This document shows positions 49,172 to 55,586 of a DNA stretch of 64,000 nucleotides, piece after piece; position 1 is the first letter of the stretch, and the number at the start of each line of letters is the position of its first letter. The notes beneath the pieces are model-generated. The model made no database searches. It worked only from the letters and a program-made list of their open reading frames with translations, and was not told where the DNA came from. Where the stretch lies: the IMG/VR virus record IMGVR_UViG_3300031555_003590, positions 228,120 to 292,119 of that record; one strand, given 5' to 3'. Source of the stretch: a virus. Lineage: Duplodnaviria; Caudoviricetes. The position numbers and the translations under genes were made by a program.

Positions 49172-49197
49172 GAGGAGAGGGTATATATCCTCTCCTC
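49172..49197. terminator. Bidirectional terminator at the strand convergence
   Basis: GAGGAGAGG-gtatatat-CCTCTCCTC. Confidence 0.75.
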
Positions 49198-49205
49198 TAT
49201 ATTTT

Positions 49206-49481
49206 TTAAATTTCGGTAATTAAAACAGCTTTATTTTTATGAGCGGATATTCCAAATATAGTAGTAAATACTTTTGGATTAATAATTTCACCACTTTTAA
49301 TAGCATTACCAATTAATGTATTTCGTAATTTAATTTGTTCTTCTTCATATTGTTCATATTCTTTTTGAAACATTTCATGATATTTTAATAAATTAAAATG
49401 ATAATGATATTTAGCAGCATCTTCCATACTACATACATTTGGATCAATCTCTTTATAAAATACTTCAGTTATTTTTCCCAT
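49206..49481 (-). CDS. Small accessory protein coupled to the Cys-rich gene
   Basis: Overlaps the end of 49469-52147; RBS GGAG. Confidence 0.7.
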   Translation of the reverse strand: MGKITEVFYKEIDPNVCSMEDAAKYHYHFNLLKYHEMFQKEYEQYEEEQIKLRNTLIGNAIKSGEIINPKVFTTIFGISAHKNKAVLITEI

Positions 49482-52147
49482 AAACTTTCTTCTCCTTCCA
49501 CTGGATATAAGAACTCATCCTTTTGTATAATAACTAATGAGTTACCATTTTTATCTTTGATTATTGGATGTAGTACAATTCCAAATGGAAGTTTATATGA
49601 AATATCTTCATCAGTAAATTGAATATCATCATTTTTAAAGAAGATAATAATATAAATACCGCCGCCATTATCAATATTAGGTTTATTAGATTCAATAATT
49701 CCAGGTAGCATATCTTCATCTATATGAATATTACCTTCTTCATCATATGTATATATTCCACCAGTAGTAACAGTTTGTTTGATGATATACTTTAATTCTT
49801 CAGGGCATGTAATAAATAAATTTCTATCATTATCTAGAGTAATAAAAATTAAACTAGATTTTTCTATATTATCTTCATAATTAGGCGATGGAATATCTCT
49901 AACTATTTTAAATGATTCTCGTTCTTGCCATCTATTTTCTGGATGTGGATAAATATATCCTTCAGAAGTAGGATCTCTTTCAGGGCCATTAGTAAATGTA
50001 GTTTTAGATTCTAAGTTTGATACACATGATCCCATACAAGTTTGAATACACATATTATCACAAGTACTAAAACATGCAGTACTACAAGTAGAATCACACC
50101 ACCAACCACATTGATTAGAACAACTTGTACAAGTAGATTCGCATCTCAAAGTGCATATACCAATGCACATTCCAGTACAAGAGTAACAAAGATTAGAACA
50201 ACCAGAACATTCTTCACTACATGAATGTACACAATTAGTTTCACAAGAATGTTCACAAGTTGCACTGCATGTAATATTACAATTTTGAGTACATCCAGAT
50301 GAACATGCAGATGAACACATGCCACATTGCCATCCACAACTATTAACACAAGTAGTACATTGATTAGAACATGCATCAGAACATTGAGCTGTACAAGATG
50401 TTCCGGTACAATTCATTCTACAGTTACCATCACAAGCATTTCCTCCATCACTACCACACATAGATTTACATCCATTACCCATGCAACTGCCATTACAATC
50501 TAATCTACATGTAGATGTACATCCGCCTTCAAATGAACAACCATTACATGCATGATGTGTTGATTCATCAGTACAACTACCACTACAATTATTTGTACAA
50601 CCTGTACAAGATTGTGTACAACCATTTGCACAACCATGACCACAATTAGTACTGCATTCGAAAGAACAATTATCAGAGCATTTTTGTTGACATGCATGCC
50701 AGCAAGTATGTACACAATATCCTTCACATGTACCTTCACATCTACCAATACAATTTAATGTACATCCTGCTTCACAACCTCTACCTTTTCCTGTTCTATA
50801 ACTATTACCAGTTTGAGGATCATTATCTACACATCCACCATAACATGAAGTAGAACAAGAATTAGTACAAGAAGTAAAACATTTGCCCATGCATCCAGAA
50901 TCCCAACATTCAGTTTTCTTATTAGGATAGAACTGGCAACTATATGAACATCCTTCACATGAATAAGTAGTATATTCTAATTTATTTTTTGCAGGCACTC
51001 CATTCTTACCACCAGTAGCAGTAATCTTTACTGTTTTAGCACCAGCAGTTACACATGAATAGCCAGTACTATTTTCACATTTAGTTTTACAAGATGAGAA
51101 ACATTGTGAACTACAACCAGTACAAGAAGTAGTACATGAATTAGTACAAGCATTACCACATCTACCCCAACAAGTAGTGGTACAATTTTGTGAACATTCA
51201 TTATCGCAAGTAAGATGGCAAAGCCCTGTACAGGAATTATTACAATTTGTAACTACTCCACCATATACTGGTTTTGATGGTAGTTCATCTCCTCGTTGTG
51301 GATTGCGAGGATTAGGTCCAAATCGTTTTGAAGCTAATCCACCACTTTTAATTCTAGTAAATACATTATTACGTTCATTATTTTGGTCATTCCAATTTCG
51401 ATGAATAATCGGAGTTACATATGGATTGTATGGATGGAAATTAGAATCACCTGGTTTAGCACCATAATCATCATAAAAATTATTAGGTCCTAATCCATCA
51501 TATTCATTTAATTCTTCTCCATCATATTCACCAGATGGCATTACATATTTACCATCTTCCATTGGATATGTAATATTTAATTTTTCATTTGGCCAATTAT
51601 CACTTTTATGTGTAGTAATACCACCATTAGGATCATTAATAGTTGGAAAATTATCTGATTCATGTAATAGTTTATTTAATACACTATTTTCTGCAGCAAT
51701 TAATGATTCTTCAATTCCAGAAGGATCTCTAAATGCGGTATTTGAAATTTCATCTCTTCCATAAAAAAGATTAATATCATTCATTTTAGCTAAACCAATT
51801 AACATATTTTTGAGTTCATCTACATTGAGAGCAGCTGCAGATGTATTTGGAATAGATGAATTATGTTCTGGAAGTTGTCCAGCAGGATTTTCTCCATGAG
51901 CAGGATAATTAATATTCTTAGTAGGTTCCAAAGATCCTTCAGAAGGATTATTGATAGTATAAGTTTTATCATCTACTAATACTCTATCACCATTATCAGG
52001 AATACTTAATGGAGAACTTTTATCTATACCTACTGTAGGAGTACATAATGGATTCCACCATTTATATGTTCCTCGTCGTTTAATTTCTTTATTAATTCTT
52101 TCTATTAATTCAGTAAATTCTATATTAGAATAAAAATTCTTATTCAA
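49469..52147 (-). CDS. 892-aa Cxxx-repeat Cys-rich protein, probable radical-SAM modification target
   Basis: About 88 Cys, mostly spaced Cx3C, in 50024-51244; TTG start with RBS GGAGGTG. Confidence 0.85.
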   Translation of the reverse strand: MNKNFYSNIEFTELIERINKEIKRRGTYKWWNPLCTPTVGIDKSSPLSIPDNGDRVLVDDKTYTINNPSEGSLEPTKNINYPAHGENPAGQLPEHNSSIPNTSAAALNVDELKNMLIGLAKMNDINLFYGRDEISNTAFRDPSGIEESLIAAENSVLNKLLHESDNFPTINDPNGGITTHKSDNWPNEKLNITYPMEDGKYVMPSGEYDGEELNEYDGLGPNNFYDDYGAKPGDSNFHPYNPYVTPIIHRNWNDQNNERNNVFTRIKSGGLASKRFGPNPRNPQRGDELPSKPVYGGVVTNCNNSCTGLCHLTCDNECSQNCTTTCWGRCGNACTNSCTTSCTGCSSQCFSSCKTKCENSTGYSCVTAGAKTVKITATGGKNGVPAKNKLEYTTYSCEGCSYSCQFYPNKKTECWDSGCMGKCFTSCTNSCSTSCYGGCVDNDPQTGNSYRTGKGRGCEAGCTLNCIGRCEGTCEGYCVHTCWHACQQKCSDNCSFECSTNCGHGCANGCTQSCTGCTNNCSGSCTDESTHHACNGCSFEGGCTSTCRLDCNGSCMGNGCKSMCGSDGGNACDGNCRMNCTGTSCTAQCSDACSNQCTTCVNSCGWQCGMCSSACSSGCTQNCNITCSATCEHSCETNCVHSCSEECSGCSNLCYSCTGMCIGICTLRCESTCTSCSNQCGWWCDSTCSTACFSTCDNMCIQTCMGSCVSNLESKTTFTNGPERDPTSEGYIYPHPENRWQERESFKIVRDIPSPNYEDNIEKSSLIFITLDNDRNLFITCPEELKYIIKQTVTTGGIYTYDEEGNIHIDEDMLPGIIESNKPNIDNGGGIYIIIFFKNDDIQFTDEDISYKLPFGIVLHPIIKDKNGNSLVIIQKDEFLYPVEGEESLWEK

Positions 52148-52182
52148 TTTAAATCACCTCCATATTATATTTGAATAAACAT

Positions 52183-52194
52183 TATTAAGTCGTT
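52183..52194 (-). promoter_or_regulatory. Putative late promoter AACG-N6-TA
   Basis: Directly after hairpin 52208-52245, upstream of the Cys-rich gene. Confidence 0.5.
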
Positions 52195-52247
52195 CCAAAT
52201 TAAAATAGATATTAGGATAGGGAAATGAATCCCTATCCTAATATATT

Positions 52248-53198
52248 TTAACTAATTAATTTATTATAAATATTCTCGCATTTTCTACATGAATTACAAT
52301 CACCAATAATACAAGTATTTTCTCTAAGTTTAATATATTCTAAAAATATATCATATTTATTATCAGGGATATAAATATTACCAAGCATCTTAGTTCTAGT
52401 ACTAGATGTCCAATTAGAAAGTATAGCATTTATATTTTCATTTGAAATCATTCTGGTAGCAAATTTTAAAATATCATAATCATGATATTGTAAATCTTCT
52501 TTATATAATTGAATTCTAGATAATTTCATCCATGGATATAATTCATATACTTTATTACATACTCGATTACATTTACTTCCTTTACATGTAAATGATTCAC
52601 ATCCTGGAAGATTATTATAATTATTTTCTCTACTAAATATACATCCTTCATTTACAATAATTTTGGTTTTCATTTCCATATCATGAATCATTTTTATCAC
52701 ATTATTATTGTTAAAATGTAATTCTCCAGATATATTTATTACATCTACTCCAGCCTGTTTAAGTTCAAATAACTTTTCACCAGGAGAAAATCTAATTGAT
52801 GGATCATTATCTATATTCCAATCCCAGTATCTTACAGATATATGAATTTCTAATTCAGGAAATTCTTTCTTTATCTTTACTGCAAATTGCGGATCAAGAA
52901 TAGTTACTGCATTAATTAAATTACTATTTAATGATAAAAGAATATATTCTATATAGTTTAAAGATGATCCAAATGTATTTAGTAATAAATTTCCTTTAAA
53001 TCCATATCTTTCGCAATTTTTTAATGTACTAAGTGTTTCATCTAGATCTATATGATTCATATGAACATCTTCTGTTAGTGAGAAGAAATATGAATGAATA
53101 TAATTTTTATATGGCAATAATGTATCAAAGAAATCTTGACCAGTAAAATTATATCCAACTGAAAAACTATTTGATTTTATTAATGATTTAATATCCAT
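52248..53198 (-). CDS. U32 peptidase-family-like Fe-S protein
   Basis: NLLLN, AVTILDP...IKKEFPELEIHISV, IIVNEGC, DILKFATR, C-terminal CxxCxxC. Confidence 0.65.
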   Translation of the reverse strand: MDIKSLIKSNSFSVGYNFTGQDFFDTLLPYKNYIHSYFFSLTEDVHMNHIDLDETLSTLKNCERYGFKGNLLLNTFGSSLNYIEYILLSLNSNLINAVTILDPQFAVKIKKEFPELEIHISVRYWDWNIDNDPSIRFSPGEKLFELKQAGVDVINISGELHFNNNNVIKMIHDMEMKTKIIVNEGCIFSRENNYNNLPGCESFTCKGSKCNRVCNKVYELYPWMKLSRIQLYKEDLQYHDYDILKFATRMISNENINAILSNWTSSTRTKMLGNIYIPDNKYDIFLEYIKLRENTCIIGDCNSCRKCENIYNKLIS

Positions 53199-53219
53199 AA
53201 ATATTTACTCCTAATATGA

Positions 53220-55499
53220 TTAATTATCAAATAATCCAATTTTAACAGCTATAGCTGTGCATTCTAATAGTTTTAAACTATTCAATTCTTCTTGATCAAT
53301 TACTAATAATGACCATTCATCTGGTAATACATTCTTTCGTATTGGTAAATCATATTCAGGATGTTTGACCAAAAGTTTATTCCAGTAATAAACATTTGCC
53401 AAGTGTTCCGCAAACATCATTAAACAAGTAAAAGTTCCTCTCTTATTAGGAGTTCCAAATATCGAATGACCATGAGCTAAACAATAAGCACAATCATTTG
53501 AAATTGGACATTCAAAACAAATATCATTGGCTGCACTTCTACGAGTAATTCTATCCATCATTTGTAAAACTTCAGAATCTTGTTCTCTGCCAATAATACC
53601 ACTTTCAATATTACCAATACAAAGATCTTTTACATCACTACCAACAGAACTAGGCATATACCTAATACAAGGATAAAATTGTCCATTAGGTCTTAATGAT
53701 AACATTGAACCTTGACCTCCACAAGGAGCTGAATCATTATACTTAGACATCATATCTTCTTGACGTTCATTAAAAATAGCAATATATAAATGCTCTAGAT
53801 TATTTTCTAATAAATAATCTGCCAGTTTCTTTAATTGTTGATATTCTATTAATGCAGTTTCTTGAGTCCATCCTTCTTCGAATACACAATTAATATTTAT
53901 ACAAGTCATTCCATTCTTAATAAAATTGACTACTGAATCATATAAATATTTGATATTAGAAGGAGCTAATGTCATTTTAGAATTTCTTTCAGGAGTATGA
54001 TATTTATTATAATGATTTAATGCAGCAATATCAATATCATAACTTCCTTCACCATTAGGTTGAACTCTACATGCATCATGTAATTCTTTATTACCATCAA
54101 TAGAAATATTAAAAGAAATATTTTGAGCATACTCTTTAAAAAAGTCTTGTACTTCTGGATCAAAATATGATAATCCATTAGAGCAAATAGAAACCCTATG
54201 TAAATTAAACCATGGATGATTTAATTCATAACATTGTTCTAAAAAATACTCGTAAATCTTTCTAGTTAATTTGATTTCTAATAGAGGTTCTCCACCAATA
54301 AATTCTAATATTAATGCTGGAGAATTATATCGATTAACATAACCATATTTATCATTTAGCATATTATCAATAAATGTTTTAGCAGTTTCAAATGACATTC
54401 TCATTGGAGTTTTATTGAATTGATAACAATAGGTACAATTATGGCATACTAAGTTACAAACAATAAAAGTATGTAATTCGGTTTCTAAATTATACACAGT
54501 TTCTACTTTAATATCATTTTCATTATATTTTAATTCAAATGAATTAACTGATGTTACATATTTATCTTCATTACAAAATATAAATCCGTGAGATGGATTA
54601 TTTGATTTCATAATTTCATCAATTGATAACCATTCTCTGCTAGGAGTTAGAAATGGATGATCTCTAGTTACTCTAAATCCATCATGATAATCTTTCCACC
54701 ATACTCCAACTGTTTCAGCTTCTCTTCTAAACAGATGAGTTACTTTAGTAGGAACAAAGTTCTTTCCATTATAAAAAGTTTCATTGTTATTATCTTTAAT
54801 AATATTTTCAGAACATGCTAAAACTAAATCTCCTAATTTAATATCTTTAATTGGTTTTTGTGATCCATTAGCCATTAAAACTAATGAATCTCCTGAAAAA
54901 CAATTTAATGAACAACGTTCGGAAGTTTGTAAAGTTACATTATGAACAAATACATCACTATCAGCACCTGTTCCTACTACATCCTGTTGTCTATTTTCAA
55001 ATAATTCTGGATATGCTTTAGCTACTCCATCATTATATGAATCAGTATAGAATCTGAAATATTCATTGGGATCAATATTATATACCTTATCTTCTGGAAT
55101 TTCATTATCAATATACTTTAAGAATTCTTTATTTTTAGAAATAATAATCATTTTAAATTTCACATAAGTTGTATCAATCTTTACATCTTGTGCTAATACA
55201 TCTTCTAAATCATCTAATTTAAATGGATCTGGAATTGTGATTACTTGTGCAATTAACATATATAAAAATTCACCAAATGATGAGTGTAATTGCCTAGCTT
55301 TATCAGTAAATTGATTTTGTAATTCTGGAATTTTATATAAATCTTTATTATTTTTTATCATGTATTTGATTCTAAATAATAGTCCATCTACATCCAATGA
55401 TAATCTATCTAATCTATATTCTTGAAATAAATTTAAACAAAAATTATCAAATTGAACTTTAAATAATTTAATATCTTTTTCTAATTTATATGCTTTCAT
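53220..55499 (-). CDS. Radical SAM/SPASM peptide maturase (Cxxx-repeat-target type) with intein
   Basis: CSLN/CTYC cluster motif, FIGGEPLL, SIDG..ELHDACR, CGG...YPCIRY...CFECPISNDCAYC SPASM. Confidence 0.9.
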   Translation of the reverse strand: MKAYKLEKDIKLFKVQFDNFCLNLFQEYRLDRLSLDVDGLLFRIKYMIKNNKDLYKIPELQNQFTDKARQLHSSFGEFLYMLIAQVITIPDPFKLDDLEDVLAQDVKIDTTYVKFKMIIISKNKEFLKYIDNEIPEDKVYNIDPNEYFRFYTDSYNDGVAKAYPELFENRQQDVVGTGADSDVFVHNVTLQTSERCSLNCFSGDSLVLMANGSQKPIKDIKLGDLVLACSENIIKDNNNETFYNGKNFVPTKVTHLFRREAETVGVWWKDYHDGFRVTRDHPFLTPSREWLSIDEIMKSNNPSHGFIFCNEDKYVTSVNSFELKYNENDIKVETVYNLETELHTFIVCNLVCHNCTYCYQFNKTPMRMSFETAKTFIDNMLNDKYGYVNRYNSPALILEFIGGEPLLEIKLTRKIYEYFLEQCYELNHPWFNLHRVSICSNGLSYFDPEVQDFFKEYAQNISFNISIDGNKELHDACRVQPNGEGSYDIDIAALNHYNKYHTPERNSKMTLAPSNIKYLYDSVVNFIKNGMTCININCVFEEGWTQETALIEYQQLKKLADYLLENNLEHLYIAIFNERQEDMMSKYNDSAPCGGQGSMLSLRPNGQFYPCIRYMPSSVGSDVKDLCIGNIESGIIGREQDSEVLQMMDRITRRSAANDICFECPISNDCAYCLAHGHSIFGTPNKRGTFTCLMMFAEHLANVYYWNKLLVKHPEYDLPIRKNVLPDEWSLLVIDQEELNSLKLLECTAIAVKIGLFDN
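54438..54902 (-). mobile_element. 155-aa mini-intein inside the CX3CX2C motif
   Basis: CFSGDSLV start, TRDHPF block B, VYNLE block F, VCHN end, Cys+1. Confidence 0.92.
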
Positions 55500-55557: not shown

Positions 55558-55586
55558 ACAAGGTAGGGTTTTAACCCTACCTTGTT
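55558..55586. terminator. Terminator hairpin
   Basis: ACAAGGTAGGGT-ttta-ACCCTACCTTGT. Confidence 0.75.

What the first reader, a model, noticed from the sequence alone, without database searches (positions are those of the whole stretch)
49206..55499. Phage-encoded RiPP-like cluster: rSAM/SPASM, U32 Fe-S protein and a giant 88-Cys Cxxx-repeat target in the fibre region
Seen: four co-oriented genes, namely an rSAM/SPASM enzyme, a U32-like protein, an 892-aa protein with about 88 Cys (hand count) in Cx3C register over about 407 aa, and a coupled 91-aa ORF. The target gene has a late-type promoter and lies among tail-fibre genes. Known: TIGR04115-type rSAMs sit beside Cxxx-repeat targets, and SPASM maturases install thioether (sacti/ranthi) cross-links. 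U32 proteins (RlhA, TrhP, UbiU/V) are O2-independent Fe-S hydroxylases. Inference: this is not a secreted short peptide but a virion-sized protein, with ordinary N- and C-terminal domains, that may be stapled by dozens of thioethers and perhaps hydroxylated. That would give a rigid, disulfide-free fibre shaft for an anaerobic niche. I know of no characterised case of rSAM-modified virion proteins.
Basis: partly seen in the sequence, partly recalled or inferred. Interest (0 to 1): 0.9.

Follow-up and report, generated by a model that had tools for sequence, protein, structure and literature searches.

The report
Phage cysteine-ladder protein with radical-SAM maturase
A 292-kb phage from animal guts encodes an 892-residue late protein with 88 cysteines spaced four residues apart, together with a dedicated, intein-interrupted radical-SAM enzyme that most likely cross-links it; the pair is kept in every related phage examined, but neither the chemistry nor a place in the virus particle has been shown.

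Summary
Four co-oriented minus-strand genes are present:
- a 759-aa rSAM/SPASM protein, whose TIGR04115 match is by far its best and whose CX3CX2C motif is split by a 155-aa mini-intein;
- a 316-aa TIM-barrel protein, distantly U32-like, with eight invariant Cys;
- an 892-aa protein with 90 Cys, 88 of them in residues 302-708 (68 spacings of exactly 4, against a shuffle mean of 9);
- an overlapping 91-aa ORF.

- **Enzyme and target:** an rSAM orthologue is present in 14 of 14 related phage records that hold the target, and it is adjacent to the target in 11.
- **Target conservation:** 80 of the 90 Cys columns are invariant across 34 homologues, against 31 of 319 other columns.
- **Promoter:** the target has a conserved AR9-late-type AACG-N6-TA motif.
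- **U32-like gene:** it is optional, found in 4 of 15 records. Wherever it occurs it sits beside some rSAM gene.
- **Wider family:** more distant rSAM relatives in other, largely phage-like contigs also sit beside Cx3C proteins, which share a helix motif. Cultured SPN3US-like phages hold unannotated small versions.
- **Not shown:** thioether chemistry, virion location and hydroxylation.

The closest tested precedent is CrpC/CrpA in archaea (2026). This scan has already reported the same system on other DNA, in at least 37 genomes. I class it as a new variant of a known kind.

The parts
55558..55585 (-). Terminator-like hairpin closing the upstream tail-protein gene, just before the rSAM gene
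   Evidence: G+C-rich inverted repeat followed by a T-run, read. Equivalent hairpins precede most rSAM orthologues.
53220..55499 (-). rSAM/SPASM maturase gene (P0001, 759 aa as encoded; 604 aa after intein removal)
   Evidence: TIGR04115 at 334 bits, E 1.2e-99. phrog_1802 radical SAM, E 1e-47. Orthologues at 66-83% identity in 14 of 14 related records.
54930..55499 (-). N-terminal extension of the maturase (residues 1-190), outside the TIGR04115 model. Possible substrate-docking domain.
   Evidence: Conserved in the five close orthologues. No Pfam or NCBIfam family. hhalign against the small accessory proteins of other systems gave 3% probability.
54438..54902 (-). 155-aa mini-intein (residues 200-354) splitting the CX3CX2C radical-SAM cluster motif before its second Cys
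   Evidence: Hint module hits. Starts with Cys and ends HN followed by Cys. Exactly absent from orthologues L011 and L013, and its removal gives CSLNCTYCY.
53220..54437 (-). Radical-SAM core after the intein, plus the SPASM domain (auxiliary-cluster Cys at spliced positions 438, 456, 506, 509, 515, 518, 537)
   Evidence: Weak TIGR04119 'CXXX_matur' match, 33 bits, at window 53388-53972.
52248..53198 (-). U32-like TIM-barrel protein (P0002, 316 aa) with eight invariant Cys in two groups (186/205/210/214 and 296/301/304/307). Optional accessory.
   Evidence: PF01136 E 1.2e-3, and 8 of 22 homologues match it. AF2 pLDDT 91. Top PDB match is the U32 peptidase Mk0906, 5d88, E 2.7e-6. Atlas U32 clusters at TM 0.6-0.74. 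Cys columns.
52212..52240 (-). Terminator-like hairpin after the U32-like gene, separating the enzyme unit from the target unit
   Evidence: Inverted repeat plus T-rich tail. The same hairpin is seen in L026 and L023.
52183..52194 (-). AACG-N6-TA, a one-base variant of the AR9 late promoter consensus, 36 nt before the target's start
   Evidence: Present at the same distance before 8 of 12 orthologous targets, in otherwise diverged spacers. The AR9 late consensus is AACA-(6N)-TA/G (PMC5312081).
49469..52147 (-). Cys-ladder protein gene (P0003, 892 aa, 90 Cys), the presumed substrate
   Evidence: At least 170 homologous clusters, all carrying precomputed PF27846.
52067..52126 (-). N-terminal helix (residues 8-27) with the motif [IL]xx[LI]xxx[ILV]xxExx[RK]R, shared by all sampled Cx3C targets. 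Candidate recognition ('leader-like') element.
   Evidence: Alignment A8 of seven targets at 14-21% identity keeps E21 and R25. R24 and R25 are invariant in 34 orthologues. AF2 predicts a helix at 8-25.
50024..51244 (-). Cys ladder: residues 302-708, 88 Cys mostly in Cx3C register; the residues between are S/T/G/N-rich and variable
   Evidence: 80 of 90 Cys columns are invariant, against 31 of 319 other columns. AF2 pLDDT about 25.
49487..49855 (-). C-terminal beta-rich domain (residues 765-887); missing from some homologues
   Evidence: AF2 pLDDT 70-85. Best fold match is only Z 4.4. The homologues in L021, L022 and L024 end near residue 779.
49206..49481 (-). 91-aa ORF (P0004), translationally coupled to the target (13-nt overlap). 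Role unknown.
   Evidence: Directly downstream of the target in 12 of 14 related loci, even where the rSAM is far away. No family found. Alignment A6.
49173..49198 (-). Terminator-like hairpin ending the target and orf91 unit
   Evidence: Inverted repeat followed by a T-rich run.

Best explanation
This is a phage version of the catalogued but unstudied 'CXXX-repeat' radical-SAM maturation system, scaled up to a whole protein.

Proposed sequence of events:
1. The rSAM/SPASM enzyme is made with a mini-intein inside its CX3CX2C motif, so it can bind its catalytic cluster only after protein splicing.
2. It recognises the 892-aa late protein, probably through the conserved N-terminal ExxRR helix.
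3. It works along the 407-residue ladder and converts many of the 88 Cys thiols into cross-links. These are most likely thioethers (ranthionine or sactionine type) to neighbouring residues.
4. The result is a reduction-proof, protease-resistant rod or knot.

The gene's late-type promoter and its position among tail-fibre and virion genes make a virion appendage the most likely destination.

The coupled 91-aa protein is a fixed partner of the target (chaperone or docking helper). The U32-like Fe-S protein is an optional helper of rSAM enzymes, not a core part of the system.

Shown here: gene content, family assignment, the intein, co-inheritance, Cys conservation and the promoter motif.
Inferred: the substrate relationship (about 0.8), thioether chemistry (about 0.55) and virion location (about 0.5).
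For: - **Family:** TIGR04115 at 334 bits, far above the next family. The intein-less orthologue L013 scores 363, over the 350 cut-off.
- **Intact enzyme:** the radical-SAM motif is restored by removing the intein, and the full SPASM Cys set is present.
- **Co-inheritance:** the rSAM is in 14 of 14 related records with the target, including four complete genomes besides this one, and is adjacent in 11 of 14.
- **Selection on Cys:** 80 of 90 Cys columns are invariant in 34 homologues at 49-78% identity, against 31 of 319 other columns in the region.
- **Other contexts:** seven of eight contexts sampled for more distant rSAM relatives (37-47% identity) have a Cx3C protein of about 200-435+ aa next to the enzyme.
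- **Shared motif:** the six of these aligned with this target all carry the ExxRR helix motif.
- **Expression signal:** the late-type promoter motif is conserved before the target and is not seen before the rSAM.
- **Neighbourhood:** tail fibre, tail protein, virion structural and Hoc-like genes. Tail-fibre PHROGs also sit beside the system in L051.
- **Habitat:** animal faeces metagenomes, hence anoxic.
- **Precedent:** CrpC puts ranthionine cross-links on the 28.8-kDa Cys-rich protein CrpA (PMC13692751).
Against: - No member of TIGR04115 has a demonstrated reaction, as far as my literature searches found.
- The residues between the Cys are variable, with no fixed acceptor such as the Asp of PapA or the Q/D of CrpA. 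The acceptor, and even the type of modification, are open.
- Nothing shows virion incorporation. There is no fibre or structural fold and no PHROG structural family for the N- or C-terminal parts.
- In three related genomes the enzyme lies 44-90 kb from the target.
- The TIGR04114 and TIGR04116 models do not reach their cut-offs here.
Confidence: 0.5

Rival explanations
1. The enzyme-substrate pair is real, but the product is not part of the particle. It would be a late-made, cross-linked Cys-rich protein that acts inside the infected cell or after lysis, for example as a metal or redox sink, an adhesive or matrix protein, or a large bacteriocin-like or anti-defence factor.
For: - A late promoter also fits lysis-time products.
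- No structural fold or structural PHROG for the non-repeat domains.
- The archaeal analogue CrpA is suspected of metal binding, not of a structural role.
- An exonuclease-like gene lies in the same neighbourhood, so the region is not purely structural.
Against: - Recurrent placement beside tail-fibre or virion genes in this clade, in L051 and in SPN3US-like phages.
- No signal peptide or transmembrane segment is evident in the N-terminus.
- At 892 aa with folded end domains, it is unlike secreted RiPPs.
Confidence: 0.25
2. The Cys ladder is not extensively cross-linked. It would bind metals or Fe-S clusters, or form disulfides after release, and the rSAM would make only a few modifications or act on another substrate.
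For: - Only the Cys are conserved, with no fixed acceptor residue, as expected for metal ligands.
- The AF2 model gives no structure to argue from.
Against: - The best-matching family is defined by adjacency to CXXX targets, and every related genome keeps the pair.
- SPASM enzymes nearest in score (PapB, CcpM, QhpD, SCIFF maturase) all act on Cys-containing substrates.
- A regular i, i+4 spacing over 400 residues is not a known cluster-binding motif (my own knowledge).
Confidence: 0.12
3. One reading: the U32-like protein is an obligatory second tailoring enzyme that hydroxylates the cross-linked protein without O2.
For: - It is co-transcribed with the rSAM here and in G003.
- It has a U32-like fold with two groups of four invariant Cys.
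- Characterised U32 proteins (RlhA, TrhP, UbiU/UbiV) are O2-independent hydroxylases (my own knowledge).
Against: - Present in only 4 of 15 records, and absent from complete genomes G001 and G012 that keep the target and rSAM.
- In G002 and G005 it lies far from the target, next to other rSAM genes: a HemN-like one, and a pair of small rSAM and rSAM/SPASM genes.
- Only 25 homologous clusters, against at least 170 for the target.
- Known U32 hydroxylases act on RNA or quinones, not proteins.
Confidence: 0.1

Closest known systems
NCBIfam/TIGRFAMs 'CXXX-repeat' radical-SAM system (TIGR04115 maturase; TIGR04114/04117/04118 targets; TIGR04116 about 90-aa associated protein; TIGR04119)
   Same: - The maturase's best family by a wide margin is TIGR04115 (334 bits; the orthologue L013 scores 363, above the 350 cut-off).
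- The target has Cys at every fourth residue.
- The genes are adjacent.
- A small (about 90-100 aa) partner gene is present.
   Different: - The family is defined by genome context only; I found no experimental work on it.
- Here the target is 892 aa with 88 ladder Cys and folded end domains, against an 18-position repeat model and a 98-position target model.
- TIGR04114 reaches 14.2 bits (cut-off 20) and TIGR04116 finds nothing.
- The maturase carries a 190-aa N-terminal extension and an intein.
- The host is a jumbo phage, and the target has a late-type promoter.
CrpC/CrpA of Methanococcus voltae (TIGR04463 rSAM/SPASM; PMC13692751, 2026)
   Same: - An rSAM/SPASM enzyme modifies a whole Cys-rich repeat protein rather than a short peptide.
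- An N-terminal region of the substrate is used for engagement.
- A second small or paralogous protein (CrpB) improves modification.
- The AF model of the repeat region is unreliable in both cases.
   Different: - A different rSAM family: TIGR04463 scores only 47 bits here against a 525 cut-off.
- CrpA has ten 17-residue repeats with a C-x-x-Q/D acceptor. Here there are about 88 four-residue units with no fixed acceptor.
- CrpC/CrpA is archaeal and cellular, not viral.
PapB/PapA (freyrasin) and other ranthipeptide or sactipeptide maturases (NF047865, TIGR03974, TIGR04068)
   Same: Second-best family match (139-155 bits). SPASM architecture. Repeated short Cys motifs processed by one enzyme.
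   Different: PapA is a short leader-plus-core peptide with six CX3D motifs. Here the substrate is far larger, has no conserved Asp or Glu acceptor, and shows no sign of leader cleavage or export genes.
QhpD/QhpC (TIGR03906), the maturase of the quinohemoprotein amine dehydrogenase gamma subunit
   Same: An rSAM/SPASM enzyme installs intraprotein Cys thioethers in a structural subunit of a larger assembly (my own knowledge). Moderate family score of 85 bits.
   Different: QhpC has a few cross-links in a small (about 80-110 aa) subunit of a periplasmic enzyme. The family is different and there is no repeat ladder.
rSAM pair plus small Cx3C ORFs of SPN3US-like (Seoulvirus and relatives) jumbo phages of Salmonella and Erwinia
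   Same: - Phage-encoded.
- The rSAM's best family is again TIGR04115 (126 bits).
- It lies next to virion, tail-chaperone and DUF4376 genes.
- The targets have a leader followed by a Cx3C/Cx2C ladder.
   Different: - Only about 24% identity to this maturase.
- The targets are about 130 aa with about 20 Cys, in tandem copies, and are mostly unannotated or called in the wrong frame.
- There is a second, small rSAM gene and no U32-like gene.
U32 family (Mk0906 structure 5d88; RlhA, TrhP, UbiU/UbiV hydroxylases)
   Same: P0002 has a TIM-barrel fold whose best solved match is 5d88. Atlas U32 clusters align at TM 0.6-0.74. It has conserved Cys groups.
   Different: The sequence match is below Pfam's cut-off (18.6 against 22.4 bits). 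There is no U32 C-terminal domain. A profile search of PDB sequences finds nothing. Generic TIM barrels score almost as well in Foldseek.

Membership tests
TIGR04115 (rSAM peptide maturase, CXXX-repeat target family) | HMM score at or above the curated cut-off of 350 bits | tested here: inconclusive
   P0001 scores 334.2 bits with the first four model positions lost to the intein. The intein-less orthologues score 329 (L011) and 363 (L013). The clade straddles the cut-off, and the next family scores only 139-155 bits.
TIGR04115 (rSAM peptide maturase, CXXX-repeat target family) | CX3CX2C radical-SAM motif and a SPASM domain with auxiliary-cluster Cys | tested here: met
   After removal of residues 200-354 the motif reads CSLNCTYCY. 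SPASM Cys lie at spliced positions 438, 456, 506, 509, 515, 518 and 537. Pfam SPASM is weak, E 0.023.
TIGR04115 (rSAM peptide maturase, CXXX-repeat target family) | Encoded next to a protein with Cys at every fourth residue | tested here: met
   The target lies 1.1 kb downstream here. It is adjacent in 11 of 14 related loci and in 7 of 8 sampled distant contexts.
TIGR04114 / PF27846 (CXXX repeat target) | Match to the 18-position Cys-repeat model at 20 bits or more | tested here: not met
   The best stretch scores 14.2 bits, E 0.038, and hmmscan of the whole protein reports nothing. The collection's precomputed annotation gives PF27846 for P0003 and all its homologues, but that model is not in the local Pfam copy. 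The Cx3C periodicity itself is unmistakable.
TIGR04116 (CXXX-repeat associated protein, about 90 aa) | HMM match in a small gene of the cluster | tested here: not met
   No match in the whole genome at E <= 1. P0004 and the maturase N-terminus have no match. The about 100-aa accessory genes of other phage systems do not match the model either. hhalign of orf91 or the N-extension against those accessories gives 1.6% and 3.2% probability.
Intein (Hint domain) | N-terminal Cys, C-terminal His-Asn, +1 Cys; in-frame insertion at a conserved site; precise absence in orthologues | tested here: met
   The intein runs CFSGDS...VCHN and is followed by C. It is 155 aa with no endonuclease domain. L011 and L013 lack exactly this segment. 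Pfam Hint scores 25.8 bits, below the 29.7 cut-off. Splicing itself was not tested.
Peptidase_U32 (PF01136) | Pfam gathering score; U32 fold with conserved Cys | tested here: inconclusive
   18.6 bits against a 22.4 cut-off, and 8 of 22 homologues match at E < 0.1. The AF2 model (pLDDT 91) has 5d88 as its top PDB match (E 2.7e-6), but generic TIM barrels follow closely. Atlas U32 clusters align at TM 0.6-0.74.
Classical RiPP (ranthipeptide or sactipeptide) | Short precursor with a cleavable leader; protease and exporter in the cluster | tested here: not met
   The precursor is 892 aa. No protease or transporter gene lies in the two transcription units. A leader-like helix exists, but cleavage is not testable with these tools.
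TIGR04463 (CrpC-type maturase of large Cys-rich proteins) | HMM score of 525 bits or more | tested here: not met
   46.8 bits. It works like this family but is not a member.
Phage tail fibre or virion structural protein | Structural fold or family, or detection in particles | tested here: inconclusive
   There is no structural PHROG or Pfam match for the target. The only hit is phrog_6085, of unknown function, within the Cys region. The best fold match is Z 4.4. Only context and the late-type promoter point this way. Particle proteomics is not testable here.

The most novel reading that the evidence does not exclude
Tailed phages of anaerobes, and also cultured SPN3US-like jumbo phages, build part of their particle (a fibre tip or appendage) from a protein that a phage-encoded radical-SAM enzyme staples with dozens of thioether bridges. 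This would be an enzymatic, disulfide-independent way of hardening a virion protein. Here it would be carried to an extreme of about 88 sites in one chain, and gated by an intein in the enzyme's catalytic motif.
Probability: 0.35. Interest if true: 0.85.

Novelty: new variant of a known kind. Interest (0 to 1): 0.7.

Why it matters
- **Virus biology:** if the ladder is cross-linked and sits in the particle, this would be, as far as my searches show, the first radical-SAM post-translational modification of a virus structural protein. It would also be by far the largest substrate of a RiPP-type thioether maturase (about 88 sites; CrpA has ten repeats).
- **An unstudied family:** it would give a function to the TIGR04115 system, which is catalogued but unstudied. 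The sampled relatives here lie largely on phage-like contigs (311 rSAM clusters at 50% identity with E <= 1e-30).
- **A route to experiment:** SPN3US-like Salmonella and Erwinia phages are cultured, have published virion proteomes, and carry small Cx3C ORFs that current annotation misses.
- **Engineering:** a processive enzyme that staples a repetitive Cys scaffold could be useful for making protease- and reduction-resistant materials.

Tried and rejected
- **DNA and protein search in cultured or deposited phages:** no near-identical DNA and no tblastn match for the target.
- **Literature:** no paper discusses TIGR04115 function or 'CXXX repeat' with radical SAM. None links jumbo phages, radical SAM and cysteine-rich proteins.
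- **AF2 of the whole target:** mean pLDDT 42.6, and the ladder is unmodelled. The VIA wide search gave best Z 4.4, on the C-terminal domain only, so nothing usable. The Atlas had no usable hit for the target.
- **orf91:** no family in Pfam, NCBIfam or PHROGs. Atlas feature hits were below 0.9 and mixed. hhalign against the about 100-aa accessory proteins of other systems gave 1.6% probability.
- **Complex prediction of target plus orf91:** no verdict, score 0.00. This is not evidence either way.
- **Maturase N-terminal extension:** no family. hhalign against the accessory proteins gave 3.2%. The Atlas gave only weak matches with TM < 0.4. Some apparent 'extensions' in distant relatives turned out to be inteins.
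- **U32-like profile against PDB sequences:** no match.
- **Early-type promoter before the rSAM:** an ATATTAT-like motif appears in only 3 of 9 loci, so it is not convincing.
- **Fused forms:** longer proteins with the ladder exist (1564-1803 aa, some with PF09479 repeats), but they gave no tail-fibre PHROG. I could therefore not confirm earlier notes that the ladder is fused to tail fibres.
- **RNA evidence:** no RNA holder is listed among public runs.
- **Rejected reading, a simple tandem DNA repeat or low-complexity artefact:** only short 12-nt arrays are present, and the Cys columns are conserved across 34 diverged homologues.


Full report
**Setting.** The window is the last 64 kb of a 292,119-bp IMG/VR virus record that CheckV rates complete. 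It has about 28% G+C. It encodes terminase, tail sheath, an RNA polymerase beta-like subunit and tail-fibre proteins. Earlier notes on the same genome call it an AR9-like jumbo phage from animal guts. The studied stretch occurs in seven animal faeces metagenomes from 2018.

**Observation.** Terminator-like hairpins bracket two units:
- rSAM plus the U32-like gene, 55499-52248;
- the Cys protein plus orf91, 52147-49206.

The 892-aa protein has 90 Cys. 88 lie in residues 302-708, and 68 successive spacings equal 4. Shuffles of that stretch average 9.1 such spacings and never exceed 21. Other ORFs in the window average 1.06% Cys. The DNA shows only short 12-nt arrays, so the ladder is maintained at the protein level. 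Across 34 homologues at 49-78% identity, 80 of the 90 Cys columns are invariant, against 31 of 319 other columns in the same region. The residues in between are S/T/G/N-rich and vary freely, and no acceptor residue is fixed.

**The enzyme.** P0001 matches TIGR04115 at E 1.2e-99 (334 bits). The next families are PapB (139 bits), CcpM, QhpD, HxsB and the SCIFF maturase.
- The radical-SAM motif is interrupted. Residues 200-354 begin with Cys and end with His-Asn followed by Cys, and they match Hint models.
- These residues are exactly absent from two orthologues. Removing them gives CSLNCTYCY. This is a 155-aa mini-intein in the catalytic cluster motif, so the enzyme can be active only after splicing.
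- One orthologue (G001) has an intein three residues further on, before the third Cys. Several distant family members have inteins at this hotspot too.
- The intein-less orthologue L013 scores 363 bits, above the 350 cut-off, and L011 scores 329. The clade therefore sits at the edge of the curated family.
- A 190-aa N-terminal extension lies outside the model and has no recognisable family.

**Co-inheritance.** Searches with the target found 14 related IMG/VR loci.
- An rSAM orthologue (66-83% identity) is present in all 14 records. It lies immediately upstream of the target in 11 and 44-90 kb away in three.
- orf91 directly follows the target in 12 of 14, including genomes where the enzyme is distant.
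- The target family has at least 170 clusters at 90% identity, many on contigs of about 290 kb. Some members carry inteins of their own, and some lack the C-terminal domain.

**The U32-like gene.**
- Sequence evidence is weak: PF01136 E 1.2e-3, below the cut-off, although 8 of 22 homologues hit the same family.
- The AF2 model is confident (pLDDT 91). Its best solved match is the U32 peptidase Mk0906, with generic TIM barrels close behind. Atlas U32 clusters align at TM 0.6-0.74, including viral clusters and one that also carries a radical-SAM domain.
- Eight Cys are invariant, in two groups of four.
- The gene is found in only 4 of 15 records. It is missing from two complete genomes that keep enzyme and target, and it has only 25 homologous clusters.
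- In G002 it lies next to a HemN-like rSAM gene. In G005 it lies between a small rSAM gene and an rSAM/SPASM gene.
- Its steady companion is therefore 'an rSAM enzyme', not this target. I read it as an optional Fe-S helper or extra tailoring enzyme. Hydroxylation of the ladder is unsupported.

**Expression signals.** AACG-N6-TA lies 36 nt before the target's start. The same motif, at the same distance, precedes 8 of 12 orthologous targets in otherwise diverged spacers. The AR9 late consensus is AACA-(6N)-TA/G (PMC5312081). No such motif precedes the rSAM orthologues. This fits an enzyme made earlier or continuously and a substrate made late, but the transcription was not measured.

**Wider family.** An exhaustive search with the enzyme core found 311 clusters (at 50% identity) with E <= 1e-30. 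Many have inteins.
- In seven of eight sampled contexts, a Cx3C protein of about 200-435+ aa lies next to the enzyme. Several contigs are phage-like, from 72 to 238 kb, and two use recoded stop codons. Five of these contexts also hold an accessory gene of about 95-103 aa.
- In L051 the neighbours are tail-fibre and minor-tail PHROGs.
- The six of these targets aligned with the present one, at 14-21% identity, all share one helix motif, [IL]xx[LI]xxx[ILV]xxExx[RK]R. It is N-terminal in six of the seven aligned sequences and follows the ladder in one. I propose this as the recognition element; that is inference.
- The small accessory proteins, orf91 and the maturase's N-extension could not be linked by profile comparison.

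**Cultured relatives.** SPN3US-like jumbo phages carry two rSAM genes near virion, tail-chaperone and DUF4376 genes. The larger rSAM's best family is again TIGR04115, at 126 bits. Just upstream I found two tandem ORFs of about 130 aa, each a 50-aa leader followed by a ladder of about 20 Cys. RefSeq leaves one unannotated and calls the other in a different frame. The leader is conserved in 70 phage records, often with nothing annotated over it. This gives an experimental route.

**Mechanism and comparison.** The best-supported reading is an enzyme-substrate pair in which a SPASM maturase processes a Cys ladder. The closest tested analogue is CrpC/CrpA. There, a SPASM enzyme of another family installs ranthionine thioethers on a 28.8-kDa repeat protein, using N-terminal domain contacts and helped by a second small protein. 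PapB/PapA and QhpD/QhpC are further analogues. What differs here is the scale (about 88 sites), the lack of a fixed acceptor, the viral origin, the late-type promoter and structural-gene context, the intein gate and the extra N-terminal domain. Thioether chemistry and virion location remain inferences. Structure prediction gave nothing on the ladder, and the complex prediction gave no verdict.

**Earlier work in this scan.** The same system has been reported before on other DNA, in at least 37 genomes, including SPN3US-type phages and a closely similar giant phage with an 89-Cys, 749-aa protein. Another rSAM cluster next to tail-fibre genes is noted 23 kb upstream in this genome. I reached the SPN3US ORFs independently, before reading those notes. 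I could not confirm their claim that the ladder is fused to tail fibres.

**Verdict.** I class it as a new variant of a known kind (a CXXX-repeat rSAM system acting on a protein-scale substrate) in a phage late and structural gene context. Interest is 0.7.

Noticed in passing
window 54438-54902 (-); L014:1489-3810 (-); P0177, P0203, P0214, P0236: Inteins have entered the CX3CX2C motif of this maturase family at two or more sites three residues apart: before the second Cys here and in G002, and before the third Cys in G001 and several distant relatives. rSAM ORF lengths of 610-1149 aa in relatives suggest larger or multiple inteins. Some target homologues (about 1250 aa, and 1631-1636 aa) also carry Hint/LAGLIDADG inteins.
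   Followed up: partly
L001:5085-5477 (+) and L001:5488-5892 (+) (Salmonella phage SPN3US, NC_027402.1 around 143.4-144.2 kb): Two tandem Cx3C/Cx2C-ladder ORFs of about 130 aa (21 and 20 Cys), each with a 50-aa leader, lie just upstream of the phage's two rSAM genes. One is unannotated. The annotated gp100 overlaps the other in a different frame and translates to an implausible Ala/Val-rich product. The leader is conserved in 70 Salmonella, Erwinia, Escherichia and Proteus jumbo-phage records.
   Followed up: partly
L016:1495-2508 (G002) and L043:1498-2418 (G005): Where the U32-like gene is not next to the CXXX maturase, it is next to other radical-SAM genes: a HemN-like one in G002, and a small rSAM plus an rSAM/SPASM gene in G005. 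An Atlas cluster of 622-aa proteins annotated with radical-SAM domains aligns with the U32-like model over nearly its whole length. This suggests a general U32-like/rSAM partnership.
   Followed up: partly
G000:C1:199556-204143 (about 24-29 kb before the window); L028:3668-9898 (G012): The genome has a second group of three rSAM genes and a 420-aa protein with weak TIGR04114-like Cys repeats. In G012 the paralogous rSAM genes lie directly upstream of the CXXX maturase, so the two clusters may be functionally related.
   Followed up: no
L053 (238-kb contig) and L055 (98-kb contig): Two phage-like contigs carrying the same maturase and Cx3C-target pair are translated correctly only with TGA=W and TAG=Q respectively. 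The system therefore also occurs in stop-codon-recoded phages.
   Followed up: no
L021, L022, L024 (target match ends at residue about 779): A subgroup of target homologues (about 750-767 aa) lacks the C-terminal beta domain yet keeps orf91, which then overlaps the shortened gene's end.
   Followed up: no
G000:C1:170248-170703 (+): A further Radical_SAM match (27 bits) with one in-frame TGA inside the match. In this intron-rich genome it might be a split or interrupted gene.
   Followed up: no
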